Made by a program: the position numbers. A stretch of 64,000 bases of DNA from Escherichia coli (lineage in GTDB: Bacteria > Pseudomonadota > Gammaproteobacteria > Enterobacterales > Enterobacteriaceae): NCBI RefSeq assembly GCF_048403405.1, contig NZ_CP183129.1. The stretch is one strand, 5' to 3'. Shown here in pieces: positions 56,601 through 64,000 of the stretch. Each line of letters opens with the position of its first letter. Within the stretch, counting starts at the first letter, position 1.

Positions 56601-59600
56601 AACATTACGAATTATGTATACGGGTGAAGCACTGCCTAATGATTGTGAATCAATTTTTTGGCTAAATATACTGGATATTTCAGCTAAACCTAAATTTGAA
56701 AATAAAAATAATTTAAATGTAAACTCAAATTATCTTCAACTCCCAATCCATAGTCGCATAAAGCTATTCTATCGTCCAGAAAAACTCACACGTTCTCTCA
56801 GTGAGGCCTATAATTCTGTTATATGGCATATTGAAAAACAAGGAGCAAAGGCCTTTCTTTGTGCAGATAATCAAAGTCCTTATTTTATTACTTATAATCA
56901 TATTACTTTGATTCAGAGCAACTACTCACAATCAATTAATCCAGTAGATATGGTTGCTCCTTATTCTTCAATACGCCTTCCTATACATGGAAATATGTCG
57001 GGATATGGAAAAGTGAAGTGGACAGTTGTTAACGATTATGGTGGGCATGAATTAAGTGAGTCAGCTCTGAAATAAGGATAATATTTATGAAATATTGCAC
57101 TTAAACTGAACATCATTCATTCCTGCCTGCCATATTTATTTCACTGGGAGTTTTTTCCATGGACACAGTGGCTATGGAATATGCTGAATTTGATCCCAGT
57201 TTTTTACAGCATACTCAAGGGAAGACGACGTTAGATATTCATCGTTTCAATCAAGGAAATCCAACTCCAGCAGGAAAGTACTATGCTGATGTTTATCTTA
57301 ATAATAAATGGAAAGGGCTCTGCCTTAGTGTTTCTTACGCCATTTGTCACATTAACATTTTTGGTGTTTACACCTGAAACCTGGGTACATGGAGCAGATG
57401 CTCATACTGAGTTTCCTTATCTTTCCGGTGCGGGAAGGTTAGTTCTGAAAGATACTATGATGATAGCAGCAGGATTTGTTGCAATGGTACATTCTGCAAG
57501 GTGTATCACTAAAAAGTAGTGAACACTATCATTTATCTGATTTTTATTTTCTAGTATTATATGAGGTTATCGCGTCGTGGAGGGGAACTTTCCCCCTCCA
57601 CTCCCACGGAGCCGGACGTGGCAGTATCCCGTCATCTGGCTCTTGTAGTTGACTGGTAACATCGCGTACAAATAGTCCAGTGTGCAAACAAACTGAGTTT
57701 AACATTCCGGATCCTGTCTAATCATTCATACGCTTGAACCAGACTACCGTGTCCCCTCTTGTATTTACGGGTAACCCATTTAGCAAGGTACAGATCGATA
57801 TGTCTGGCTATATAATCCATTACTGATTGACAAAAGCGTCCATAGTACAATACCCACGTAGCCTGAGATTGAGCCAACGTACCATTGTATCCAGTGATAA
57901 CGGTGCTCTGTGGCTTCAATCCTAACCCCGCACTGTCTGACGGATTGCCTCGCAAAAATGGACAATGCCGCTGAGGAACTGGCGTATAGTAATAGAGTCG
58001 CTTTATTGTCGAGTTCGGTGACCGCGACCGCTAGGATGGTCACTTTTGAAAAAGGCGTTTACACAGCATGGTAAACGGACTCGAAATTCTCTTACATATA
58101 CTGAAAATTAATTACAGTAACCTATTCGTTATAACCTGTTTAAACCCACTCCAATTCGTTATTTATCTCACGTCTGATCATGAATATATAAAAATCGCGT
58201 ATGTACGGTATGTCCGGTTAAAGTATTCAATGAAAGTGTCCTGCGTCGGCTTACCTGGCTGGATAAGATCCCGTTTTACTGCATGTTTTTCTGCCCATTC
58301 AGCCAGTATCAGTGAGATAAATTCTGGACCATTATTCATGTGCAGCATGATCGGGTAGCCGCAGTTTGCCGCGATCCTGTCGAGTACACGGATCATTCGC
58401 AGATCTGGCAGATTCAGAATGATTTTAATCGACAATGTCTCACGGTTAAAGTCATCAACTTTAACAGTCCGCCCGGTTTCAACCGACTTAATTACGGCGA
58501 TGATCTGATGCTCAGTAAAACAGGCTTTACGCATAGCGATCTCCTTCGTTGGCAAATTAATTATGCGGGATACTTACACCGTCAACCCCAGTATGCAGAG
58601 GATGAAGCATCAGATCGGAGCATTGTCTGATGGTGCCATACACCAGATTTAACAATAACCCGTTTAATACGCCAAGCTGCAAAGAAGCAATTAAGTATTC
58701 TAAAACAGATAGTTAAAACTTAAACCTTATCTAGGACAGCCCAAATTTTTATTATTTTTTAAATAATCACTTGCTAATGATAATTATATATACATACAAT
58801 GTGATATGTTATAACATAACAAAAAATGGCGGATAGTATGAAAAAATCTATTTTTAATTATACAACATTTTTTATTTCAATGAGTTATTCCTTATTTGCA
58901 AATGCAAGCCCTGCAATAAAATCAACTGAAAATCGGAACAATGAGGTATTAGAGGTCTATTCAACACCTTTGCATACTCCGCAAGAGAAAATGGCGATCC
59001 CCGTTTCTGTTCTGACACAAGAAGATCTACGCGCTAATCGTAGTGCCTCGATTGCTGAAACCTTAACATCCTTACCAGGTTTTCATGCCAGCTTTTTTGG
59101 TGGAGGCTCAGTTCATCCAGTTATTCGAGGAATGTCAGGCAATCGAGTCAAGGTATTACACAGTGGTAGTGATCTTATGGACGTATCCTCTATTGGTGCA
59201 GATCATACAATCACCAGTGAACCCTTTTTAAGTCAACGCATTGAAGTATTAAAAGGCCCTTCAACATTACTTTATGGAGGAGGCACAATAGGCGGTGCAA
59301 TTAATGTTATTGATAGCAAGATTCCTATGTCAGTGCCTGAAAAAGGCTATGAGGGTGAATTGCATTATCAATACGATTCTGTTTCTAAAGGAAATACAGG
59401 ATCAGTAGGATTAACGTTAGGAGAAAATAATTTGGCGCTTCGCCTTGAGGGTACTAAACGTTATCAAAGTGATTACAAACAACCAGAACCTTTACATCAA
59501 GGAGAAACTAGCCGTTTAGCAGGATCTTATCAAGATAACCAATCGGCAAATATTGGTGTATCCTGGCTTTTTGATGACGGTTATATAGGGATTGGTTATG

Positions 59601-62600: not shown

Positions 62601-64000
62601 CCAGAAATTAATGAACTTTATACACATGGCCCTCATTATGCTTATTTAATTGAAGAACAAGGAAACAGTGAATTTAATACCGAAAAAAGCAAAAGTATTG
62701 AATTATCATCTGTTATTGAGATTGGCAATTTCTCTAATAAACTTAATTTGTATAAAACAGACTACAGTGGTTTTAAATTTAGACGATTAACGGGTATCAG
62801 TCGTGGTGCTGGTCCTGTTATGGAATGGGATGACACCGATCTTGAAACAAAAGGATTAGAATATGAATTTAAATATTTATATGAAATGCCTCATGATCAC
62901 AATCTAACATTTACACTATTTGGTGATTTTGTCGAAAATAAAAGCAAAAGAAAACTGTTTATTGCAGGTCACTATTTGCCAAATTTACCTAATGAAAAGC
63001 ATGGTATCAGTATTTATTACCAACATGATGAATTAACTGCATTTAGTAGTGCAACTTACTATAAAAAACAAAAAGAAAGCGGTGGGTTAATGTATGGTGG
63101 AGATATGGCCTTTCCTTCCTATACGTTAGTTGATGCGGGGATTGGCAAAAAATACCACCTTGATAAGGTAGATGTTTCGGTTGATTTTATTATTAATAAT
63201 CTCACCGATACTGAAGCAAGACCTGCATCTTCTCAATTGAAATATTTAGTCCCATTACCGGGTCGAAATTATGGGATAAATGTCAAAATTGATTTTTAAT
63301 ATATTCTGATTTAATAAGATATAAAGTAAGTGAGGTACTCTATGGGTGCCTCTTTTTTTTATAATCATGCACAATTAACTTGAAGATGCATGTTTTAGGG
63401 CTCTATCACATTAAGGTAAGCACACCTGTTTTAATTCTAGACATTTTTTGAGATCTCGGTGCCAACAAGATGTTTCTATCAGTACCAATCCCCAATTCAT
63501 TACCACAAATCTACTTTTCACCAATACGGAGTAAAGGGCGCTAAGTTCGGCTATGCAGGGACCGATTTTTCCTCCTGTGTGCTTTTTGTTCCCGTATCAG
63601 CTTCCGGTTAATCATTTCACGGCACAACCGGTCCCGTAAGGGTGAAGTGCACGCATGCTGCACCCTTGTGGGCCAGAACGATGCCGAGAAAGCGAACTGT
63701 CAGGCGATACGAAGATGAAAATCACATTACTGATGGAGAAAAAACTATGATCACTTCCTTGCATACTCAGACAAGTGCCTCTAACACCGCAACGGCGACC
63801 AGCGTATCCCCGCTGGACCCGTCAGGCTCCTCAAAAACGAAATTTTCCAAAACCAGAACCGATATTTATCAGATCGTTACCGACCTCATCATTACCACAC
63901 TGGAAGTAGGCGTTAAACCCTGAGTGTGTCCGTGGCAGCGCGTACCGGGTATGTCCGGCATGCCTTCCAACTACGCTACTGGCACAGCCTACAGCGGGTG

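What the first reader, a model, noticed from the sequence alone, without database searches (positions are those of the whole stretch)
58838..63299. Two tandem TonB-dependent receptors in a low-GC block, the first with a histidine-rich surface loop
The region 54.3-63.3 kb is markedly AT-rich compared with the rest of the window, suggesting acquisition from a low-GC donor. It ends with two adjacent TonB-dependent receptors; the first carries a loop of about 40 residues dominated by His, Asp and Glu, as in zinc-piracy receptors of the ZnuD type, and both have heme/zinc-receptor-like motifs. No cognate ABC transporter or regulator is visible in the window, so this may be a stand-alone metal-acquisition pair that is atypical for E. 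coli.
Basis: partly seen in the sequence, partly recalled or inferred. Interest (0 to 1): 0.7.

Follow-up and report, generated by a model that had tools for sequence, protein, structure and literature searches.

The report
Zinc-starvation receptor pair on an ICE
A mobile element from Proteus-like bacteria has given this E. coli a two-gene operon that probably switches on when zinc is scarce: one gene is a clear relative of the zinc-scavenging receptor ZnuD, which E. coli normally lacks, and the other belongs to a rare, unstudied offshoot of that family.

Summary
Two intact TonB-dependent receptor genes lie head to tail: R1 at 58838-60919 and R2 at 60930-63299. They sit in a 34% GC block. R1 has a 40-residue loop with 16 His, 4 Asp and 3 Glu.

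R1 is a ZnuD-type zinc receptor by sequence. ZnuD is its best full-length match in both NCBIfam and the PDB. It keeps all four residues of ZnuD's buried zinc site. A Zur box overlaps its -10 promoter element.

R2 is not a second ZnuD. It belongs to a rare ZnuD-derived subfamily that has lost the plug Asp-His zinc ligands and the His-rich loop. It has gained a folded domain of about 117 residues in extracellular loop 2, which matched no solved structure.

The promoter, both genes and the terminator form a discrete 4.6 kb module. This module is chromosomal and syntenic in Proteus. Here it is cargo of an SPI-7/ICEPm1-type conjugative element. Only 13 of 5,426 complete E. coli genomes carry it.

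Zur boxes also precede the R1+R2 pair in four other loci, and stand-alone R2-type genes in Acinetobacter. The lack of a nearby ABC transporter or regulator is normal for ZnuD, because core ZnuABC, Zur and TonB would serve. No regulation or transport was tested. R2's substrate is unknown.

The parts
58771..58800 (+). Sigma-70-like promoter TTGCTA-18 nt-TACAAT for the operon
   Evidence: Consensus scan, 9 of 12 matches. The same hexamers are present upstream of the Proteus sp. chromosomal copy L011. A consensus match only; the transcription start is not mapped.
58798..58821 (.). Zur box, AATGTGATATGTTATAACATAACA, overlapping the -10 element and 16 nt before the R1 ATG
   Evidence: Two overlapping matches to the core TGTTATANTATAACA, at 58802-58816 (2 mismatches) and 58807-58821 (1 mismatch). 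Only 0.33 matches are expected by chance in the whole window. Equivalent boxes precede the R1 homologues in L005, L006, L007 and L011 and are essentially absent elsewhere in those loci. The consensus is taken from PMC2895646.
58838..60919 (+). R1: ZnuD-type TonB-dependent receptor, 693 aa (alternative ATG at 58826 gives 697 aa)
   Evidence: NCBIfam NF038289 ZnuD, 572 bits, covering positions 9-685 of 685. PDB 4rdr ZnuD, E 2.6e-92. Pfam Plug plus barrel. The Asp-His-Glu-His zinc ligands are conserved. dN/dS is 0.10-0.13.
59633..59752 (+). Coding region of the His/Asp/Glu-rich loop of R1 (residues 266-305), at the position of ZnuD extracellular loop 3
   Evidence: Composition. It aligns to the ZnuD loop-3 segment that follows YGLPAHSH. 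The loop stays His/Asp/Glu-rich but varies in length in four homologues.
60930..63299 (+). R2: ZnuD-derived TonB-dependent receptor of a rare subfamily, 789 aa (alternative ATG at 60921, one base after the R1 stop codon)
   Evidence: ZnuD is the best sequence match but a weak one (167 bits; E 9e-29). The AlphaFold2 model has pLDDT 86.7, and its best PDB fold match is ZnuD at E 2.7e-40. The plug Asp-His is replaced by Asn-Met. dN/dS is 0.07-0.10.
61569..61922 (+). Coding region of the inserted domain of R2 in extracellular loop 2 (residues about 214-331, with Cys227 and Cys243)
63332..63362 (+). Intrinsic terminator after R2 (9-bp stem with 5 G-C pairs, then a T8 run)
   Evidence: sequence. The scan reported no terminator-like site at the R1-R2 junction; the only +-strand internal hit is a weak 6-pair stem at 61236-61253 inside R2.
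58745..63365 (+). The transferable module (promoter, both genes and terminator) that is homologous to the Proteus chromosomal locus
   Evidence: blastn gives 87.4% identity to Proteus sp. L011 and 79.6% to P. mirabilis L005. Homology starts and stops at these coordinates.
38577..64000 (.). SPI-7/ICEPm1-type integrative conjugative element that carries the module (the window ends inside it)
   Evidence: 99.77% identical to E. coli HM670 over 25.4 kb. That record is annotated with ParA, SPI-7-type DnaB, ParB, STY4528 and STY4534 ICE replication proteins, a PFL_4669 ICE protein and topoisomerase III, followed by a yersiniabactin-like PKS/ABC cluster. The adjacent integrase gene (37782-39047) largely precedes this stretch and matches HM670's at only 95.4%.

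Best explanation
This is a two-gene operon for outer-membrane uptake under zinc starvation. It originated in Proteus-like bacteria and was brought into E. coli as cargo of an SPI-7/ICEPm1-type conjugative element.

Proposed mechanism:
1. When zinc is plentiful, the host's Zur repressor binds the box that overlaps the -10 element and blocks transcription (inferred).
2. When zinc is scarce, both genes are transcribed from one promoter. R2 is probably translationally coupled to R1 (inferred from the anatomy).
3. R1 works like ZnuD. Its flexible His/Asp/Glu-rich surface loop captures Zn2+. The ion passes to a buried site formed by Asp-His on the plug and Glu plus His on the barrel. TonB-driven movement of the plug releases it to the periplasm, where the host's ZnuABC takes it up. 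The conserved residues are shown here. Binding and transport are inferred from the N. meningitidis structure.
4. R2 is a diverged paralogue that cannot form the same zinc site. It presents a folded loop-2 domain in place of the His loop. It most likely imports zinc in another form, such as chelated or protein-bound zinc, or some other nutrient needed during zinc starvation. Its substrate is not established.
For: R1 identity:
- It scores 572 bits over the full length of the NCBIfam ZnuD model; all other models score 132 bits or less.
- Its PDB match to ZnuD has E 2.6e-92.
- The four ZnuD high-affinity ligands are Asp99, His100, Glu340 and His499 (PMC4557270). All four are present in R1 and in every relative of about 690 aa in the alignment.
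- The His-rich loop sits at the loop-3 position.

Regulation:
- A Zur-box core lies 16 nt before the ATG and overlaps the predicted -10 element.
- Boxes with 0-1 mismatch lie 25-57 nt upstream of the pair in Proteus sp., P. mirabilis, Providencia sneebia and an Enterobacter cloacae plasmid.
- Boxes with 1-2 mismatches lie 23-28 nt upstream of stand-alone R2-type genes in A. lactucae, A. baumannii and one unassigned contig.
- Almost no other 150-bp window in those loci matches as well.

Operon structure:
- The gap between the genes is 10 nt, or 1 nt with the alternative start. The scan found no terminator-like site at the R1-R2 junction (one weak 6-pair hit lies inside R2 at 61236-61253), and a strong one follows R2.
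- The pair keeps its order and diverges in parallel: R1 is 90/81/68/62% and R2 is 91/80/72/64% identical to the same four homologues.
- dN/dS is 0.07-0.13 for both genes.
- A canonical ZnuD-like gene also sits directly upstream of an R2-type gene in GCA_000772535.1 (read as Chelonobacter oris).

R2:
- Its best fold match is ZnuD, at E 2.7e-40; the next is PhuR at 5e-28.
- It forms a monophyletic subfamily nested in the ZnuD-like radiation.

Origin and rarity.
Against: - No expression, Zur-binding, zinc-binding or transport data exist for these genes in the papers searched.
- R1 is below the curated NCBIfam cutoff for ZnuD (572 against 950 bits). It also lacks the loop-3 cysteine pair of the neisserial protein.
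- The window's Zur box is the most degenerate of the set. Its left arm differs at three positions from the Proteus sp. box.
- R2 lacks the plug Asp-His and the His loop, so a role in zinc uptake rests only on its regulation and its pairing with R1.
- R2-type genes in Suttonella, the P0261 genome, the Pasteurellaceae locus and Chryseobacterium show no match to the gammaproteobacterial Zur consensus. Their Zur motifs may differ.
- Whether E. coli TonB energises Proteus-derived receptors is not known.
Confidence: 0.72

Rival explanations
1. Both proteins are haem or iron receptors under Fur control, as the haem-receptor-like motifs might suggest.
For: Both match the TonB haem/haemoglobin subfamily model TIGR01785 (132 and 98 bits). 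R1 carries RLPVAEELY...H...GDPNL and R2 carries YRAPEINELY...H. From memory, these resemble the FRAP/NPNL region of haem receptors. ZnuD shares the two-histidine clamp with HasR (PMC4557270). An AATGATAAT string overlaps the -35 region in the window and in P. mirabilis.
Against: The haem-model scores are far below their cutoff (316.85) and far below the ZnuD score. No match to the 19-bp Fur consensus with 3 or fewer mismatches lies near the operon; the only window hit is at 4614. The AATGATAAT string is absent from the Providencia and Enterobacter promoters, while the Zur box is present in all. Purified ZnuD did not bind haem-agarose (PMC4557270). R2 lacks the plug histidine that haem receptors use.
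Confidence: 0.07
2. R1 is a zinc receptor, but R2 has nothing to do with zinc. It would be a TonB-dependent transporter for a different substrate, such as another metal or an organic nutrient, that merely shares the transcript.
For: R2 has lost two of the four zinc ligands, and the replacement residue is hydrophobic and variable across the subfamily (Met, Phe, Leu, Ile or Tyr). The loop-2 domain has no invariant His, Cys, Asp or Glu. The genomic contexts of stand-alone members show no zinc genes.
Against: Stand-alone R2-type genes in two Acinetobacter species and one other contig have their own Zur boxes 23-28 nt upstream. The tight pairing with a ZnuD-type gene recurs in Morganellaceae, on an Enterobacter plasmid and in a Pasteurellaceae genome. 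The barrel Glu and His of the zinc site are invariant in the subfamily.
Confidence: 0.18
3. In E. coli the pair is inert passenger DNA. It would be intact but not usefully expressed or energised, and carried only because the ICE carries it.
For: The module is embedded among gene remnants, pseudogenes and IS fragments. It is rare in E. coli (13 of 5,426 genomes). Its Zur box and ribosome-binding region are weaker than in Proteus sp..
Against: Both ORFs are intact and 99.9-100% identical across the 13 E. coli genomes. Exactly these two sequences are deposited as MULTISPECIES [Enterobacterales], with Klebsiella and Morganella names, and are seen on at least 1,000 contigs each; 98-100% identical AFDB entries come from P. 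mirabilis, Providencia rettgeri and Salmonella. Promoter, Zur box and terminator are retained as a unit. Purifying selection is strong, although it was measured between species and not within E. coli.
Confidence: 0.1

Closest known systems
ZnuD (TdfJ, NMB0964) of Neisseria meningitidis; PDB 4RDR, 4RDT, 4RVW
   Same: R1 shares the plug-plus-barrel TonB-dependent architecture and aligns over its full length (E 2.6e-92). It has the identical Asp-His/Glu/His buried zinc site, a His/Asp/Glu-rich loop at the loop-3 position and a Zur box in the promoter. Like znuD, it is not linked to znuABC. For R2, ZnuD is the best fold match.
   Different: R1 has no cysteines, so it lacks the loop-3 disulphide. 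Its loop is far richer in His (16 of 40 residues). It is about 690 aa, like the Pseudomonas and Acinetobacter forms. It scores below the NCBIfam ZnuD cutoff. R2 lacks the plug ligands and the His loop and has an extra loop-2 domain.
ZnuD-like receptors of Pseudomonadaceae (about 670-690 aa) and A. baumannii ZnuD1/ZnuD2
   Same: These are the closest relatives of R1 outside Morganellaceae (43-46% identity; the sister group in the tree). A. baumannii ZnuD1 and ZnuD2 have Zur boxes and are induced by TPEN. One of them is plasmid-borne, so mobile znuD genes have a precedent (PMC3516566).
   Different: Those genes are single. None is reported with a downstream R2-type partner, and none is reported on an ICE in Enterobacterales.
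Uncharacterised R2-type receptors, for example A. baumannii VB1190 QCP21678.1, A. lactucae P0038, Chelonobacter oris A0A0A3AL69 and Pasteurella multocida Q9CLF3
   Same: They share R2's length (775-825 aa). The aligned members share the loop-2 domain with its Cys pair (absent from 2 of 17) and the loss of the plug His, and they keep the barrel Glu and His; plug residues were not checked for A0A0A3AL69 or Q9CLF3. The Acinetobacter members have Zur boxes.
   Different: Most are stand-alone genes. In the window, R2 is fused into an operon behind a ZnuD-type gene. None has a described function, so this comparison adds no mechanism.
CbpA/TdfH, the calprotectin-binding zinc-piracy receptor of Neisseria
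   Same: This is a resemblance in concept only. It is a second zinc-starvation TonB-dependent receptor alongside ZnuD that takes zinc from a host protein (PMC7025491).
   Different: No sequence or fold evidence links R2 to TdfH. It was not among the top 50 PDB fold matches. No test for host-protein binding is possible with these tools.
ICEPm1 of Proteus mirabilis (SPI-7/PFGI-1-type ICE)
   Same: The backbone gene set is the same and a yersiniabactin-like nrp cluster is nearby. Several products annotated in this stretch of HM670, R2 among them, bear WP_004239xxx accessions. [quoted passage not shown]
   Different: No tRNA-Phe gene lies in the window. PMI2596, the known nrp-linked receptor of ICEPm1, is a different gene: it is divergent from nrpX at the other end of the cluster.

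Membership tests
ZnuD (zinc TonB-dependent receptor; NCBIfam NF038289, PDB 4RDR) | TonB-dependent receptor architecture: N-terminal plug inside a 22-strand barrel, with a signal peptide and a TonB box | tested here: met
   R1 matches Pfam Plug and barrel. R2 matches Plug and gives a confident plug-plus-barrel model. Both have signal-peptide-like N-termini and TonB-box-like strings, EVLEVYST in R1 and DVITVKAT in R2. This is a reading of the sequences, not a formal test.
ZnuD (zinc TonB-dependent receptor; NCBIfam NF038289, PDB 4RDR) | ZnuD is the best full-length match among characterised receptors | tested here: met
   R1: 572 bits over positions 9-685 of 685, with the next family at 132 bits; PDB E 2.6e-92, with the next at 8e-12. 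R2: ZnuD is also the best match, but weak and fragmented (167 bits; E 9e-29). Its fold match has E 2.7e-40.
ZnuD (zinc TonB-dependent receptor; NCBIfam NF038289, PDB 4RDR) | Score at or above the curated NCBIfam cutoff (950 bits; an 'exception'-type model) | tested here: not met
   R1 scores 572 bits and R2 scores 167 bits. PGAP therefore names them only 'TonB-dependent receptor'.
ZnuD (zinc TonB-dependent receptor; NCBIfam NF038289, PDB 4RDR) | Buried high-affinity zinc site: Asp99 and His100 on the plug apical loop, plus Glu340 and His499 on the barrel | tested here: met
   This applies to R1, which has D-H-E-H, as does every relative of about 690 aa in the alignment. R2 does NOT meet it: it has N-M-E-H, and all 17 aligned R2-type sequences lack the plug His.
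ZnuD (zinc TonB-dependent receptor; NCBIfam NF038289, PDB 4RDR) | His/Asp-rich extracellular loop 3 | tested here: met
   This applies to R1: 16 His, 4 Asp and 3 Glu in 40 residues at the loop-3 position. It has no Cys pair. R2 does NOT meet it: its loop 3 is a 4-residue turn between strands 348-370 and 375-400.
ZnuD (zinc TonB-dependent receptor; NCBIfam NF038289, PDB 4RDR) | Zur-dependent, zinc-repressed expression | tested here: inconclusive
   A Zur-box sequence is present, conserved across homologous promoters and statistically unexpected. Binding and regulation themselves cannot be tested with these tools.
ZnuD (zinc TonB-dependent receptor; NCBIfam NF038289, PDB 4RDR) | Binds zinc and supports growth under zinc limitation | not testable with these tools
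   This needs biochemistry and genetics. No published data on these genes were found.
TonB-dependent haem/haemoglobin receptors (TIGR01785, TIGR01786) | Score at or above the curated cutoffs (316.85 and 323.75 bits) | tested here: not met
   R1 scores 132 and 119 bits. R2 scores 98 and 79 bits.
Ordinary E. coli siderophore receptors (FepA, CirA, FhuA, IreA, FoxA and others) | Full-length similarity to those families | tested here: not met
   Only the plug region matches, at 23-91 bits against cutoffs of 223-1300. In the NJ tree, R1 and R2 are separated from IreA by the longest branch. No homologous DNA is found in 5,413 of 5,426 complete E. coli genomes.
ICEPm1 / SPI-7-type integrative conjugative elements | Backbone genes for integrase, ParA/ParB, island DnaB, STY4528/STY4534 replication proteins and topoisomerase III, with nrp cargo | tested here: met
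   Annotation of the 99.77%-identical HM670 region.
ICEPm1 / SPI-7-type integrative conjugative elements | Integration at tRNA-Phe with 52-bp direct repeats, and identity to the reference ICEPm1 | tested here: inconclusive
   No tRNA gene lies in the window. The far end of the element is outside the window. The direct repeats were not searched for, and the reference sequence and the original description were not available.

The most novel reading that the evidence does not exclude
The R2-type proteins may be a previously unrecognised class of zinc-starvation outer-membrane receptor. They derive from ZnuD but have been rebuilt: the plug zinc ligands and the His-rich 'fishing' loop were discarded, and a new folded loop-2 domain with a disulphide was added. 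They would take zinc from a carrier, either a host zinc-sequestering protein or a metallophore, rather than as the free ion. Where they pair with ZnuD, the operon would give the cell two complementary routes for zinc. ICEs would then be spreading this dual system into E. coli, Klebsiella and Salmonella.
Probability: 0.25. Interest if true: 0.75.

Novelty: new variant of a known kind. Interest (0 to 1): 0.5.

Why it matters
E. coli and its close relatives are usually described as having no dedicated outer-membrane zinc receptor. A 2013 review of enterobacterial metal transport left open whether zinc enters through a TonB-dependent receptor or through porins (PMC3852070).

Here a ZnuD-type gene with an intact zinc site and a Zur box is being carried by a conjugative element into clinical E. 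coli. Most of the 13 carrier genomes are human isolates and one is from bovine mastitis. In this window it sits beside pap genes and ORFs of hlyCABD size. Identical proteins are deposited from Klebsiella and Morganella, and 98-100% identical AFDB entries come from P. mirabilis, Providencia rettgeri and Salmonella.

If the operon works, it could help carrier strains resist calprotectin-mediated zinc withholding. ZnuD proteins are also vaccine candidates in Neisseria and Acinetobacter.

Tried and rejected
- PMI2596 as the identity of either gene. Rejected: that receptor is transcribed divergently from nrpX, at the opposite end of the nrp cluster. In HM670 our pair lies beyond the nrpG end of the cluster.
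- Fur regulation. There is no match to the Fur consensus with 3 or fewer mismatches near the operon. The AATGATAAT string is not conserved outside Proteus.
- The Zur-core match at 32478-32492. It lies inside an IS3-family transposase remnant between convergent ORFs, so I treat it as chance.
- Genomic context of distant R2-type genes (A. lactucae, Chryseobacterium, Suttonella, the P0261 genome). No informative metal genes were found.
- Rfam scan of the window and of L014. Nothing was found in or near the operon.
- A. baumannii ZnuD2 as the R2 equivalent. Not supported: ZnuD1 and ZnuD2 are reported as 41-42% identical to neisserial ZnuD, that is, canonical. I could not test whether the third Zur-box receptor, A1S_2829, is R2-type.
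- The original ICEPm1 description (PMC2772549) is not held in the library.
- No attempt was made to identify the exact source strain of the window.

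
Full report
**Observation**

The window holds two adjacent ORFs on the + strand. R1 runs 58826/58838-60919 (697/693 aa). R2 runs 60921/60930-63299 (792/789 aa). RefSeq annotates the same two genes in identical DNA, with starts equivalent to 58838 and 60930.

R1 matches the Pfam Plug and TonB barrel models. R2 matches Plug only under Pfam. Its homologues carry barrel hits, and an AlphaFold2 model built on 61 sequences is a confident plug-plus-barrel (mean pLDDT 86.7, pTM 0.82).

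The His-rich segment is real. R1 residues 266-305 (window 59633-59752) contain 16 His, 4 Asp and 3 Glu in 40 residues. His is 2.8% in the rest of the protein.

GC is 0.341 over 54300-63300, against 0.481 for the adjacent ICE backbone.

**What R1 is**

- Against NCBIfam, R1 scores 572 bits over the whole 'zinc piracy TonB-dependent receptor ZnuD' model. The haem subfamily scores 132 bits, the siderophore subfamily 91, and named E. coli receptors score less.
- Against solved structures, N. meningitidis ZnuD matches at E 2.6e-92 over residues 61-686. The next match is BtuB at 8e-12, on the plug only.
- The ZnuD structure paper names the buried high-affinity zinc ligands as Asp99 and His100 on the plug apical loop, plus Glu340 and His499 (PMC4557270). 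With a 14-residue offset between the paper's numbering and positions in the 4rdr chain, these fall on the R1 motifs GADHT, HHDEKEG and NGVHAA. In a 61-sequence alignment, R1 and every relative of about 690 aa have Asp-His-Glu-His.
- The His-rich loop follows YGLPGH. This is where ZnuD has its His/Asp-rich loop 3, which that paper describes as a flexible zinc 'fishing net'.
- R1 has no cysteine, so the neisserial loop-3 disulphide is absent.
- R1 is below the curated NCBIfam cutoff (950 bits), which explains the generic database name.
- Its nearest relatives outside Morganellaceae are Pseudomonadaceae receptors at 43-46% identity.

**Regulation and operon anatomy**

Directly upstream lies AATGTGATATGTTATAACATAACA (58798-58821). 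It holds two overlapping matches to the Zur-box core TGTTATANTATAACA, one with 1 mismatch and one with 2. The whole 64-kb window has only three such matches, against 0.33 expected by chance. The full consensus, GAAATGTTATANTATAACATTTC, is quoted in PMC2895646.

The box overlaps the -10 element of a TTGCTA-18-TACAAT promoter and ends 16 nt before the ATG.

I fetched homologous loci and found the same arrangement in each:
- P. mirabilis chromosome: 0 mismatches.
- Proteus sp. G2618, Providencia sneebia and an Enterobacter cloacae plasmid: 1 mismatch each.

In all four the box lies 25-57 nt from the ATG, and no other 150-bp window in those 22-kb loci matches as well.

I found no convincing Fur box.

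R2 starts 10 nt after the R1 stop codon, or 1 nt after it if the upstream ATG is used. The scan reported no terminator-like site at the R1-R2 junction; its only other +-strand hit is a weak 6-pair stem inside R2 (61236-61253). A 9-bp stem followed by a T8 run lies after R2 at 63332-63362. A single Zur-controlled transcript is the simplest reading. This is inferred, not shown.

**What R2 is**

ZnuD is again the best match, but weakly by sequence (167 bits; E 9e-29 in three pieces). By fold the match is clear: E 2.7e-40, with PhuR next at 5e-28. R2 differs from ZnuD in three ways.

1. The plug Asp-His is replaced by Asn-Met. In all 17 full-length relatives the His is replaced by Met, Phe, Leu, Ile or Tyr, while the barrel Glu and His stay invariant.
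2. Loop 3 is only a tight hairpin turn, so there is no His-rich loop.
3. About 117 residues are inserted between barrel strands 3 and 4, in extracellular loop 2. This region is modelled with block pLDDT mostly 84-95 as a small mixed alpha/beta domain. It contains R2's only two cysteines, Cys227 and Cys243.

Further results on the inserted domain:
- Modelled alone it reaches pLDDT 85.9.
- In AFDB50 it matches only TonB-dependent receptors, the full-length ones 744-825 aa, from Morganellaceae, Pasteurellaceae, Neisseriaceae, Moraxellaceae and Bacteroidota.
- A profile of the domain finds only 42 proteins among 1.84 billion representatives. In the 33 hits of 570-835 aa it lies at about residues 190-345, with one exception (P0266, 45-175); the other 9 hits are short fragments.
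- The domain has no invariant His, Cys, Asp or Glu. That argues against a conserved metal site and for recognition of some larger ligand.

A neighbour-joining tree rooted on IreA recovers the R2-type sequences as one clade (68 of 100 bootstraps), nested among ZnuD-like receptors. R1 with its Morganellaceae and Enterobacter relatives forms another clade (88 of 100).

**Is R2 linked to zinc?**

There are two lines of evidence.

First, the pairing is old and constrained. R1-then-R2 occurs in the window's ICE, at one syntenic chromosomal site in two Proteus genomes (P. mirabilis and Proteus sp. G2618), in Providencia sneebia and on an Enterobacter plasmid. Divergence runs in parallel: R1 is 90/81/68/62% and R2 is 91/80/72/64% identical to the same four homologues. 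dN/dS is 0.07-0.13 for both genes. In GCA_000772535.1, which I read as Chelonobacter oris from the hit, a canonical ZnuD-like gene (804 aa, with plug Asp-His and a Cys/His-rich loop 3) sits directly upstream of an R2-type gene.

Second, stand-alone R2-type genes have their own Zur boxes 23-28 nt before the ATG. This holds in Acinetobacter lactucae, A. baumannii VB1190 and one unassigned contig.

R2-type promoters in Suttonella, the P0261 genome, the Pasteurellaceae locus and Chryseobacterium do not match this consensus. That cannot be interpreted without their own Zur motifs.

I conclude that R2 is probably part of the zinc-starvation response. It cannot bind zinc the way ZnuD does, and its substrate is unknown.

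**Origin and distribution**

Window 38577-64000 is 99.77% identical to E. coli HM670. That region is annotated as an SPI-7-type ICE backbone (integrase, ParA, island DnaB, ParB, STY4528 and STY4534 replication proteins, a PFL_4669 ICE protein, topoisomerase III). A yersiniabactin-like PKS/ABC cluster follows about 6 kb beyond the receptors. This fits published descriptions of ICEPm1. I could not compare with the reference sequence.

Homology to Proteus chromosomes covers only 58745-63365, from the promoter to the terminator. The operon is therefore a discrete captured module. Among the genomes compared, it is closest to Proteus sp. G2618 (87%), with P. mirabilis at 80%.

The rest of the low-GC block (54.3-58.7 kb) holds remnants: the speFL leader with a truncated decarboxylase gene, fimbrial fragments, a DUF417 fragment and a transposase fragment.

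Only 13 of 5,426 complete E. coli genomes carry any homologous DNA, even at blastn sensitivity. All copies are chromosomal and at least 99.9% identical. Exactly these two sequences are deposited as multispecies Enterobacterales proteins, with Klebsiella and Morganella names, on at least 1,000 contigs each. AFDB entries 98-100% identical over the loop-2 domain come from P. mirabilis, Providencia rettgeri and Salmonella.

**Comparison with what is known**

R1 works like ZnuD, and by the sequence-level criteria it is a ZnuD-family member. The functional criteria are untested. R2 fails two defining features, the plug ligands and the His loop, so it should not be called ZnuD. It is a ZnuD-derived variant with no characterised member.

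The missing ABC transporter and regulator are not anomalies. N. meningitidis znuD (NMB0964) is at a different locus from znuCBA (NMB0586-0588), and E. coli's core genome encodes ZnuABC, Zur and TonB-ExbBD (established knowledge).

I found no paper describing these genes. One review draws a 'ZnuD' in a P. mirabilis figure without gene-level evidence.

**Verdict**

This is a real, coherent and mostly explicable feature. It is a horizontally acquired, Zur-box-fronted operon of znuD plus a paralogue.

- R1: a new member of a known family in an unusual host.
- R2: a new variant of that family with an unknown substrate.
- Interest: moderate, 0.5.

Noticed in passing
window 19913-26636 (- strand): Three consecutive ORFs of 478, 707 and 1024 aa. 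Their sizes and order match hlyD, hlyB and hlyA of the alpha-haemolysin operon, with a 166-aa ORF (hlyC-sized) at 26823-27323. This identification rests on size only.
   Followed up: no
window 6795-16005: A P-fimbrial (pap) operon. It is 96.4% identical to the papI-papG region of E. coli HM670. The ICE therefore sits next to a classic uropathogenic island. The two strains differ in what lies between pap and the ICE integrase.
   Followed up: partly
window 37782-39047 and the whole window: The ICE integrase gene is present, but ARAGORN finds no tRNA gene anywhere in the window. ICEPm1 is reported to integrate at tRNA-Phe. The element may sit in tandem with another island, or the tRNA may lie at the far end.
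   Followed up: no
window 54300-58740: The low-GC DNA upstream of the operon falls to 21% GC at 55-56 kb. It holds gene remnants: the speFL leader plus a truncated Orn/Lys/Arg decarboxylase N-terminus, a fimbrial subunit, a chaperone, an usher N-terminal fragment, a DUF417 fragment and a DDE transposase fragment. It is not homologous to the Proteus chromosomal flanks of the receptor pair.
   Followed up: partly
window 32478-32492: CGTTATAATATAACA, a one-mismatch match to the Zur-box core. It lies inside an IS3-family transposase remnant between convergent ORFs. I judge it a chance match.
   Followed up: yes
window 4614-4632 and 4722-4844: A Fur-box-like sequence, GCAAATGATAATCATTGTC (3 mismatches; 0.01 expected by chance). 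It lies about 90 nt upstream of an Rfam STnc490 Hfq-binding sRNA match (65.5 bits).
   Followed up: no
window 51772-51932; 5342-5458; 6508-6686: Rfam matches above gathering score: STAXI RNA (121 bits) inside the ICE replication module, an ALIL pseudoknot (IS3 frameshift element) and AS-pc02 antisense RNA.
   Followed up: no
window 52603-53550: The Rpn-family (recombination-promoting nuclease) ORF contains a perfect tandem peptide repeat, (GIEK)x5, near its C-terminus.
   Followed up: no
L014 2190-2260 and 4905-4975 (GCA_000772535.1, read as Chelonobacter oris): The 5' regions of the ZnuD-like gene and of the R2-type gene share a conserved element of about 60 nt. It begins with a CRP-like palindrome (TGTGA-N6-TCAC) followed by GGAATC...GGATT.ACGTA.ATTCGC. 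There is no Rfam match. It may be a shared regulatory site or a leader RNA.
   Followed up: no
L005 and L011 3450-7700; L014 8215-12328; L006 13983-15026: An AfuABC/FbpABC-type ABC transporter (SBP_bac_11, BPD_transp_1, ABC_tran plus TOBE_2), or at least its binding protein, lies next to the receptor pair in Proteus chromosomes, in the Pasteurellaceae locus and on the Enterobacter plasmid. This could be chance or a functional link.
   Followed up: no
NZ_CP072980.1 (E. coli strain 2547): This genome has two places that match the receptor region, while the other 12 carrier genomes have one. It may hold a second ICE copy or a partial duplication.
   Followed up: no
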